The translations under genes were made by a program, and so were the position numbers. A DNA stretch of 64,000 nt from a virus: IMG/VR virus record IMGVR_UViG_3300047300_000501, positions 1 through 64,000 of that record; one strand, given 5' to 3'. Numbering within the stretch: position 1 is the first letter of the stretch; every line of letters begins with the position of its first letter. Positions 9,318 through 10,802 of this stretch are shown here, one piece after another. Under the pieces are notes generated by a model. The model was not told the DNA's origin, ran no database searches, and was given only the letters and a program-made list of their open reading frames with translations.

Positions 9318-10802
9318 ATGCTGAATTTAGGGTTCTGGTCATCATCAAAAGGAACGGTAGCAGTACCAGACCTATCTGGACTCTTGTATTCAGACGCAAT
9401 TACAACATTACAAAATTCAGGACTAAATTATACTAACTCTGGATCAACAAATACATCTAATTCAAATTTAAATAATAGAATTGCAACACAATCAATTGCA
9501 GCAGGAACTTTAGTTAATTATGAGACTAATGTTAGTTTTACATATTACATTTATGCTGCAGTTCCAGTTACTCCAGGTGTTACTCCAGTCACCCCCGTAA
9601 CACCTGTAACTCCTGTTACCCCAGTTACTCCTGTTACCCCAGTTACTCCTGTAACTCCAGTTACTCCAGTAACACCTATTAATACAGATCCAATCTGGGC
9701 TAACTGTTATAGTGAATACAGAGCAGCATGTTGTGGAACTGTAACAATCTGTGTTGATACAAATCCTAATTCTCCATCATATGGTTTAGAAAATCCTAGT
9801 GCAAGTTATGCTGGATCAACTTGTTCCAATGGTCATACATATGAAGATCCTTGCCCTGTAACTCCTGTTACTCCAGTCACACCCGTAACACCAGTTACTC
9901 CTGTAACACCAGTAACACCAGATACACGTCTTCAATGTGTTTCACCAAATACTATTACTAATGCAAATGCCTATACATGTACCGAATTAGGATTGACATA
10001 CCTTGGAGGACCAACTGAGTATGTAATTGGCGTTGGACAACAGTGCTGTGGTCCTGCGGTTACACCTGCTGTAACTCCAGTTACTCCAGTAACGCCTGTA
10101 ACTCCTGTTACCCCAGTTACTCCTGTAACGCCTGTAACTCCAGTTACTCCAGTAACGCCTGTAACTCCAGTTACACCAGTTACTCCAGTCACACCATCAG
10201 TTACACCGTATTCTTTCTCAACTACAACTTATGGAGTTAAGTGTATTTCTGGAAATACATTTATTAGACTTGCTCCAGGCAAAGGTATCGAACAAACAGA
10301 TATTCTTACAGGTAAAAAATATCTTATGAATGATAATAATGAAATTATTGCAAAACAGGCAAAAGATATTCAGATTGGTGATGAAGTCATGACTGTTCAA
10401 TATGCTGAAGTTGATCAGTCTTCCCCAGACTATGCAGTATTTGAGTGGAACTCTGACTCTCTTACATTTGTTTCAAATTCAACAACAACTATTACTGATA
10501 TTGAAGAATCCGCTAAGTTCCAAACAGTTTACATTAATGGCGACCAGTCAGCACAGTTTACTTTAGAACATCCAATTCTTACAAATAAAATCATTAATGG
10601 TGTTCCTTCTTGGAAGTTTGCAATGGTAGCAGAACTTGAAGTAGGAGATATAATTGTTAAATATAACAATGAAACTGGACTATATAACAATGTAGAAATA
10701 ACATCATTAGACATAATGTCAAACTTAGACCCAGTTTATACCTTCAGTGCTGAGCCAGGTGATATAATTGTTGCAGGCGATATTATAACTCACAATAAGT
10801 AA
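9318..10802 (+). CDS. PASTA domain + mucin-like (VTP)n/Cys-rich region + C-terminal Hint domain
   Basis: VAVPDLSGL...A...LQNSGL...[10 protein letters not shown] (PASTA); three VTP tracts; Hint from C309 (10242) with FTLEHP, VYTFS and terminal HNK. Confidence 0.85.
9579..10196 (+). repeat. Three coding tandem (Val-Thr-Pro) tracts
   Basis: 9579-9677 (11 units), 9858-9920 (7), 10071-10196 (14); synonymous third positions vary. Confidence 0.95.

What the first reader, a model, noticed from the sequence alone, without database searches (positions are those of the whole stretch)
10203..10802. Two paralogous 186-aa Hint domains with a conserved pre-cleavage linker and no usable C-extein
Seen: C309-K494 (10242-10799) and C267-K452 (21858-22415) align without gaps, roughly 55-60% identical by manual count. 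Both have Cys1, block B TLEH, block F VYTFS and terminal His-Asn. Both are preceded by Y[S/G]FSTTTYGVK although the upstream domains are unrelated. Only one Lys follows Asn, so there is no Ser/Thr/Cys +1 and no endonuclease. Known: this matches Hedgehog/bacterial intein-like domains rather than mobile inteins. Inference: these are domesticated C-terminal processing modules that activate ...YGVK as a thioester for hydrolysis or for ligation to an external nucleophile (another virion protein, a lipid or a glycan). The conserved linker may be the recognition tag.
Basis: partly seen in the sequence, partly recalled or inferred. Interest (0 to 1): 0.85.

Follow-up and report, generated by a model that had tools for sequence, protein, structure and literature searches.

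The report
Self-cutting Hint caps on phage adhesins
Two proteins in the tail-fibre region of an uncultured freshwater phage each end in a real intein-like (Hint) self-processing domain that stops one lysine after its last catalytic residue. This places them in a large family of phage "end caps" that I found described in no paper; their chemistry is predictable but their purpose is not.

Summary
ORF A (9318-10802, PASTA + PVT repeats) and ORF B (21060-22418, FN3 + FSPFG repeats) share a gap-free C-terminal 200 aa at 60% identity. Each has an 11-aa linker, a 186-aa domain running Cys1 ... T-L-E-H ... His-Asn, one Lys, then stop.

The domain is a Hint fold:
- AlphaFold with 89 relatives gives pLDDT 96.
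- A family profile hits the C. thermocellum bacterial intein-like domain at E 7e-11.
- Pfam, NCBIfam and PHROGs do not reach threshold.

It belongs to a wide family (135 hits among cluster representatives; one, P0057, spurious), almost always C-terminal:
- Cys1 is invariant.
- His-Asn is present in 86 of 89.
- FN3 or PASTA heads recur.
- A Pro/aromatic short-repeat stalk precedes the Cys.
- New here: Lys sits at +1 or +2 after His-Asn in 94 of 107 representatives.

Related phages keep both copies in conserved synteny. A cultured relative is Erwinia phage Alexandra gp112.

Best reading: a type-A-BIL-like, self-removing C-terminal cap. Thioester formation at K|C is resolved by hydrolysis or by transfer to the tail Lys. 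Ligation to an outside partner is possible but untested. The 11-residue linker is conserved only among close relatives. Other readers of this scan noted similar Hint caps on other DNA.

The parts
9318..10802 (+). ORF A, 494 aa: PASTA head, three PVT-repeat arrays separated by two Cys-rich inserts, linker, Hint domain, Lys, TAA
9357..9542 (+). PASTA domain of ORF A (aa 14-75)
   Evidence: Pfam PF03793, 35.8 bits against a cut-off of 23.2
9563..9670 (+). PVT repeat array 1 (9-nt period, about 12 copies)
9858..9925 (+). PVT repeat array 2 (9-nt period, about 7 copies)
10069..10189 (+). PVT repeat array 3 (9-nt period, about 13 copies), the stalk directly before the linker
10209..10241 (+). Linker A, Y298-K308 ([11 protein letters not shown]). 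K308 is the -1 residue whose carbonyl would become the thioester.
10242..10796 (+). Hint domain A, C309-N493. Cys1 at 10242-10244; block B T..H at 10560-10571; His-Asn at 10791-10796.
10797..10802 (+). One-residue tail (Lys494) and TAA stop
   Evidence: Lys conservation
21060..22418 (+). ORF B, 452 aa: FN3 head (two matched stretches), FSPFG repeat stalk, linker, Hint domain, Lys, TAG
21174..21371 (+). Best-scoring FN3 stretch of ORF B (aa 39-104)
   Evidence: Pfam PF00041, 35.3 bits against a cut-off of 25, 2 stretches
21675..21836 (+). FSPFG repeat array (15-nt period, about 10.8 copies), the stalk before the linker
21825..21857 (+). Linker B, Y256-K266 ([11 protein letters not shown])
21858..22412 (+). 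Hint domain B, C267-N451. Cys1 at 21858-21860; block B T..H at 22176-22187; His-Asn at 22407-22412.
22413..22418 (+). One-residue tail (Lys452) and TAG stop

Best explanation
Those proteins are a PASTA head or an FN3 head on a Pro/aromatic repeat stalk, encoded in the phage's tail-fibre module.

Inferred mechanism:
1. Cys1 attacks the Lys(-1) carbonyl (N-S acyl shift, helped by block B Thr/His), giving a ...YGVK thioester.
2. The terminal Asn, helped by the penultimate His, cyclises and frees the one-residue Lys tail.
3. The thioester is resolved by water or by an amine of that conserved Lys, as in type-A BIL splicing or the Tetrahymena BUBL BIL2 isopeptide reaction.

The net result is a mature head-stalk protein ending ...YGVK or ...YGVK-K, plus a free Hint domain.

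Shown here: fold, homology, motif conservation, terminal position, architecture and synteny. Inferred: every chemical step, and the purpose of the cap. Possible purposes are keeping the sticky stalk soluble or unassembled until the right moment, or exposing a new C-terminus.
For: - Profile of 89 relatives against PDB sequences: 2lwy bacterial intein-like domain at E 7e-11, then mini-inteins at about 1e-9.
- Catalytic positions under selection across representatives of clusters built at 50% identity: Cys1 in 65 of 65 rows that reach it; block-A Thr in 62; block B Ser/Thr in 89 of 89, with His in both window copies; His-Asn in 86 of 89.
- Tail after His-Asn is 1-8 aa in most. Lys is at +1 or +2 in 94 of 107; Cys/Ser/Thr at +1 in only 6.
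- Type-A BILs are defined by a terminal His-Asn and no +1 nucleophile, and mostly give cleavage products (PMC4031507). BIL2 makes a Lys epsilon-isopeptide (PMC8616854).
- Both copies are kept about 10 kb apart in conserved synteny in related phages. PASTA-linked Hints form one clade, support 99/98.
- Erwinia phage Alexandra gp112, annotated as a virion structural protein and lying beside tail fibre genes, carries the same cap (hhalign probability 98.8%, E 9e-17).
Against: - No biochemical or proteomic evidence of cleavage exists for any member.
- The block B His is replaced by Gln or Glu in about half of the distant relatives, so chemistry may differ across the family.
- A self-removing cap leaves the strict conservation of the tail Lys only loosely explained.
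- No assembly or chaperone role is demonstrated.
- Virion membership of ORF A and ORF B is inferred only from gene position and from the annotation of a distant relative.
Confidence: 0.6

Rival explanations
1. Ligation device. The Hint-generated thioester is not hydrolysed. It is attacked by an outside nucleophile, such as a Lys or N-terminal amine of a capsid, tail or fibre protein, or a host cell-wall or glycan group. This would covalently plant the PASTA or FN3 head on its stalk without ATP, in the manner of Hedgehog cholesterol transfer or BUBL ubiquitin-like conjugation.
For: - ORF A and ORF B have no recognisable virion-attachment domain other than the Hint: just head, flexible stalk and Hint.
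- They lie among fibre genes.
- There is precedent for Hint thioesters captured by Lys epsilon-amines (PMC8616854).
- The stalk-then-Hint architecture is conserved family-wide, which fits a tether anchored at its C-terminus.
Against: - There is no adaptor region after the Hint, whereas Hedgehog needs its sterol-recognition region; the protein ends one residue after Asn.
- The conserved His-Asn-(x)Lys points to an intramolecular C-terminal reaction.
- No candidate acceptor was identified.
- The -1 residue is not conserved across the family.
Confidence: 0.2
2. Non-catalytic use. The Hint domain stays attached and serves as a docking or structural domain, with the catalytic-looking residues kept for folding.
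For: - Hint-like folds with lost activity exist.
- The block B His is variable (His/Gln/Glu) in the wider family.
- No experimental cleavage data exist.
Against: - The nucleophile Cys1 is invariant (65 of 65) and His-Asn is kept in 86 of 89 at 25-40% overall identity. That pattern is what selection on catalysis produces, not selection on the fold alone.
- Both window copies keep the full Cys / T-x-x-H / His-Asn set.
Confidence: 0.1
3. Selfish or decaying element: a mini-intein remnant that landed at gene ends and persists because self-removal makes it harmless.
For: - The same cap is joined to unrelated heads: FN3, PASTA, collagen-like and others.
- Stalk types are swapped between architectures, which shows module mobility.
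Against: - There is no homing endonuclease.
- Both loci are retained in conserved positions across related phages with orthologue-like divergence.
- Motifs specific to this family are conserved: Asn99, E-P-x-D, and the His-Asn-(x)Lys tail.
- The cap is always coupled to a repeat stalk.
Confidence: 0.1

Closest known systems
Type-A bacterial intein-like (BIL) domains, e.g. the Clostridium thermocellum BIL (PDB 2lwy)
   Different: BILs sit inside bacterial proteins with real flanks on both sides. Here the domain is the extreme C-terminus of phage proteins with a tail of 1 (family-wide, 1-8) residues carrying a conserved Lys. It is 186 aa with two extra hairpin inserts. In block F an Asp (E-P-x-D) replaces the usual His.
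BIL2 of the Tetrahymena thermophila BUBL1 locus (PDB 6tmm, 6y75)
   Different: BIL2 lies between two ubiquitin-like domains in a eukaryote and transfers a ubiquitin-like cargo. Here the cargo is an adhesin-like head on a stalk, and the only downstream residue is a single Lys.
Hedgehog/Hog C-terminal autoprocessing domain (PDB 1at0, 6tyy)
   Different: Hedgehog has a sterol-recognition region after the Hint and no terminal His-Asn. The phage domains end at His-Asn-Lys and have no adaptor region.
Intramolecular chaperone auto-processing domains of phage tailspikes and fibres (Peptidase S74)
   Same: A functional analogy only: a C-terminal module of phage fibre-region proteins that removes itself after doing its job.
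   Different: The fold and chemistry are unrelated (a Ser-Lys dyad in a trimer). No Pfam match to it was found, and the fold here is Hint.

Membership tests
Hint (Hedgehog/intein) superfamily | Hint beta-fold | tested here: met
Hint (Hedgehog/intein) superfamily | Sequence-profile homology to solved Hint domains | tested here: met
   Profile A1 against PDB: 2lwy at E 7e-11; RadA, KlbA and CDC21 inteins at 3e-9 to 8e-9.
Hint (Hedgehog/intein) superfamily | Block A nucleophile (Cys/Ser at position 1) and block B T-x-x-H | tested here: met
   C309/C267 and T-L-E-H in both copies. Cys in 65 of 65 and Ser/Thr in 89 of 89 relatives.
Pfam Intein_splicing (PF14890) / Hint (PF01079) models | Score above the curated gathering threshold | tested here: inconclusive
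   12-18 bits against cut-offs of 35.8 and 29.7 for the window proteins. 35 of 89 relatives match PF14890 at E<1e-3. NCBIfam and PHROGs have no model for the domain.
Type-A BIL domains | C-terminal His-Asn | tested here: met
   H492-N493 and H450-N451; 86 of 89 relatives.
Type-A BIL domains | No Cys/Ser/Thr nucleophile at +1 | tested here: met
   +1 is Lys in both copies. Only 6 of 107 representatives have Cys/Ser/Thr at +1.
Type-A BIL domains | Embedded between two flanking parts of a bacterial host protein | tested here: not met
   The stop codon comes one residue after Asn. Relatives have several in-frame stops after it. The genome is a phage.
Type-A BIL domains | Demonstrated autocleavage or splicing | not testable with these tools
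   Needs expression and mass spectrometry.
Canonical (mobile) inteins | +1 Cys/Ser/Thr and ligation of two functional extein halves | tested here: not met
   +1 is Lys and the C-extein is a single residue.
Canonical (mobile) inteins | Homing endonuclease, or insertion in a conserved site of a housekeeping protein | tested here: not met
   All 186 aa belong to the Hint fold. The host proteins are variable adhesin-like proteins.
Hedgehog/Hog autoprocessing domains | Adduct (sterol) recognition region following the Hint module | tested here: not met
   The protein ends at His-Asn-Lys.
Peptidase S74 intramolecular chaperone domains | S74 fold with a Ser-Lys dyad | tested here: not met
   No Pfam match, and the fold is Hint. 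The analogy is functional only.

The most novel reading that the evidence does not exclude
The family is a phage-encoded, ATP-independent protein-ligation system. The Hint cap charges the C-terminus of a stalked adhesin (PASTA or FN3 head) as a thioester. Using the conserved His-Asn-(x)Lys end, it then couples the stalk covalently to a virion protein or to the host envelope. That would be a Hedgehog/BUBL-like conjugation used to decorate or anchor phage particles.
Probability: 0.2. Interest if true: 0.9.

Novelty: new variant of a known kind. Interest (0 to 1): 0.62.

Why it matters
Hint domains are known as inteins, Hedgehog processors, BILs and pretoxin releasers. A large phage family that uses them as terminal caps on stalked adhesin-like proteins has no description in the papers I could search and no family model that recognises it. 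The cap has its own signature: Cys1, Asn99, E-P-x-D and His-Asn-(x)Lys.

If the caps simply self-remove, they are a new answer to how phages mature or time the assembly of sticky fibre-region proteins. If the thioester is passed on, they would be a natural, ATP-free protein ligase of direct use in protein engineering. That outcome would also change how metagenomic phage "hypothetical proteins" with FN3 or PASTA heads are read. The family is directly testable in E. coli with a tagged stalk-Hint construct.

Tried and rejected
- Single-sequence AlphaFold failed (pLDDT 32); only the alignment-based model is used.
- tblastn of the domain against 50,697 deposited phages found nothing at 1e-5. megablast of ORF A also found nothing. 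A more central family member then found the Erwinia jumbo phages.
- The search for related loci with the broad alignment failed for lack of a conserved stretch. Scans with P0080 and P0069 gave only N-terminal matches or nothing.
- The first genome-contig scan found nothing. The second found one contig, phage-like by synteny, in a Ferruginibacter MAG.
- Stop-codon readthrough into the in-frame downstream 69-aa Cys-rich ORF (10815-11024) was considered as a hidden C-extein and rejected. Relatives have two or three in-frame stops in the gap, ORF B's downstream gene is out of frame, and the two stops differ (TAA, TAG).
- P0057 (2200 aa, 22 matched stretches) is a repeat-protein false positive with no His-Asn.
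- Host clues were weak: a sub-threshold WhiB-like match, no tRNAs, and a major capsid protein only 38% identical to those of Streptomyces phages.
- Sequencing runs: no RNA holder listed. Only the probable source run, a freshwater metagenome, holds most of the stretch.
- Complex prediction was not run, because the report claims no specific binding pair.
- Eight literature searches found no paper describing C-terminal Hint caps on phage fibre-region proteins.

Full report
**What is there.** The window is the first 64 kb of a 74.2-kb IMG/VR virus record, estimated 68% complete. Its probable source is a freshwater metagenome. It is a tailed phage: portal, prohead protease, HK97-type capsid protein, very long tail proteins, ribonucleotide reductase and a DnaB-like helicase are all present. 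The capsid protein is only about 38% identical to any deposited phage.

ORF A (9318-10802, 494 aa) has a PASTA domain, three PVT-repeat arrays separated by two Cys-rich inserts, and then the domain in question. ORF B (21060-22418, 452 aa) has FN3 domains, about ten FSPFG pentapeptides, and then the same domain.

**Observation.** BLASTP aligns only the last 200 residues of the two proteins: 60% identity, no gaps, E 3e-84. Each 186-aa domain begins with Cys, contains F-T-L-E-H-P and V-Y-T-F-S-A-E-P, and ends T-H-N-K-stop.

**Is it a Hint domain?**
- Single-sequence library searches are only suggestive. Intein_splicing scores 12-18 bits against a cut-off of 35.8, and Hint scores 15.5 against 29.7. 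PHROGs and NCBIfam find nothing for the domain.
- An exhaustive phmmer search of 1.84 billion cluster representatives gave 135 hits.
- A profile of 89 of them hits the solved Clostridium thermocellum bacterial intein-like domain 2lwy at E 7e-11. A series of mini-inteins follows at about 1e-9.
- With that alignment AlphaFold gives pLDDT 96.2 and pTM 0.91. Without it the model fails.
- Foldseek returns only inteins, BIL domains and Hedgehog.

The fold and the homology are settled.

**The family.**

*Conserved positions.* In the 89-sequence alignment, Cys1 is present in all 65 rows that reach that column. The block-A Thr is present in 62. The block B first position is Ser/Thr in 89 of 89. The block B His is His in 40, Gln in 33 and Glu in 15, and is His in both window copies. 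Asn99, Gly135-Asp136 and His184-Asn185 are at least 90% conserved.

*Terminal position and the tail Lys.* The domain is almost always the C-terminus. Among 107 distant representatives ending in His-Asn plus a tail, most tails are 1-8 residues. Only 6 have Cys/Ser/Thr at +1, but 94 have Lys at +1 or +2.

*The stalk upstream.* In 54 full-length representatives, the 40 residues before the Cys are 21% Pro and 21% Phe. They show short-period tandem repeats: median periodic identity is 0.47, against 0.14 in the N-terminal control windows. 26 of 54 reach 0.5 or more, against 0 of 54 controls. The -1 residue itself is free (F, G, S, R, A, Y, K ...). The 11-residue linker is therefore conserved only among close relatives.

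*Heads and relatives.* FN3 (23 members) and PASTA (14 members) are the recurrent heads. BFVD holds FN3-, PASTA- and 'Hint domain containing' proteins of uncultured Caudovirales with TM 0.7-0.8 to the model. One listed hit, P0057, is a repeat-protein false positive.

**Conservation in related phages.** Three of five related IMG/VR records examined carry two copies about 10 kb apart, as here; the other two (33.6 and 16.3 kb) showed one. Gene order around both copies is conserved. Fibre-region proteins diverge to 35-85% identity, while the reductase stays at 84-97% (95-97% in three of the four loci). In a maximum-likelihood tree the PASTA-linked Hints form one clade (support 99/98) among the FN3-linked ones. 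The duplication therefore predates this phage group. Stalk types have been swapped between architectures.

**A cultured example.** Erwinia phage vB_EamM_Alexandra gp112 is annotated 'virion structural protein' and lies next to tail fiber genes. It has collagen-like repeats and then the same cap, with G|C at the junction, F-T-H-E-H-P, and V-H-N followed by a 10-residue tail that begins with Thr and contains Lys. hhalign to the family profile gives probability 98.8%, E 9e-17.

**How it most likely works.** By the published definition, type-A BILs have the terminal His-Asn and lack a +1 nucleophile. They form the N-terminal thioester, cleave at the C-terminus by Asn cyclisation, and give mainly cleavage products. 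Some ligation occurs when the freed amine attacks the thioester (PMC4031507). Tetrahymena BIL2 passes its thioester to a Lys epsilon-amine (PMC8616854).

The window domains have every residue this needs, so I read them as self-removing caps. An N-S acyl shift occurs at K|C. Asn cyclisation releases the Lys. The thioester is resolved by water or by that Lys. All chemical steps are inference. The conserved His-Asn-(x)Lys argues that the C-terminal reaction matters, which simple Hedgehog-like N-cleavage would not require.

The purpose of the cap is open. It might keep the stalk soluble, time assembly, or expose a new end. Neither protein shows any other attachment domain. However, there is no adaptor region and no identified acceptor. 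I give it about 0.2.

**Rejected ideas.**
- Readthrough into the in-frame downstream Cys-rich ORF is excluded, because relatives carry several stops in the gap.
- A decaying mobile intein is unlikely, given the conserved synteny and the family-specific motifs.

**Novelty.** The domain type is known. The terminal-cap architecture, with a repeat stalk and a Lys-bearing micro-tail, appears in none of the papers I could search. No Pfam, NCBIfam or PHROG model captures it. Other readers and agents of this scan noted related Hint caps on other DNA. Those notes are unchecked and are not used as evidence.

Noticed in passing
window 12039-14251, 22424-26714: Possible hydroxylation/glycosylation cassette next to the Pro-rich repeat proteins. 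It includes a 2OG-Fe(II) oxygenase of the prolyl-hydroxylase type (PF13640, 12039-12632), a GT61 glycosyltransferase fused to a cupin (12620-14251), a run of paralogous 220-250-aa proteins (one matches DUF6065 below Pfam's threshold, 20.4 bits against 26.6) and a weak GlcNAc-transferase match (25839-26714, E 1e-3). The order is conserved in related phages. These enzymes might modify the PVT and FSPFG stalks.
   Followed up: partly
window 10815-11024: A 69-aa Cys-rich ORF (DUF6171-like match, 24.1 bits against a cut-off of 27, so below threshold) lies directly after ORF A. It is in the same frame as ORF A here and in two related phages, but in-frame stops separate them, so there is no fusion.
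   Followed up: yes
window 9700-9857 and 9926-10068 (ORF A aa ~129-180 and ~204-250): Two small Cys-rich inserts sit between the PVT arrays of ORF A. They have no family match and their fold is unknown.
   Followed up: no
L014 (contig of an uncultured Ferruginibacter MAG) 3263-7032: A 7.6-kb contig binned with a Bacteroidota MAG carries the same module: homologues of window ORFs 7857 and 8688, a (FGFTP)n-Hint protein ending VHNK, a 2OG oxygenase and an SLT lysozyme. This is a weak host clue. The ORF after the Hint gene (5255-5878) starts with a block-A-like motif without Cys (hhalign probability only 50%).
   Followed up: partly
L013 (Erwinia phage vB_EamM_Alexandra) 2951-4393: gp112, annotated 'virion structural protein': collagen-like repeats plus a C-terminal Hint of this family, with Thr at +1 and a 10-residue tail, beside tail fiber genes. 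It is a culturable system for testing the cap.
   Followed up: partly
window 26811-28841 versus L003-L005, L008: The ribonucleotide reductase is 95-97% identical in three related phages (84% over a partial match in a fourth), while the adjacent fibre-module proteins are 35-85% identical. The host-recognition region is strongly mosaic or fast-evolving.
   Followed up: no
window 9563-10189 and 21675-21836: The peptide repeats (PVT, FSPFG) are near-perfect at protein level but only 73-87% matched at DNA level. Synonymous scrambling of this kind would damp replication slippage.
   Followed up: no
window 14298-14888 (- strand): The only minus-strand gene in the fibre module is an SLT-type lysozyme-like protein with a hydrophobic N-terminal segment. 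It is conserved in all related loci.
   Followed up: no
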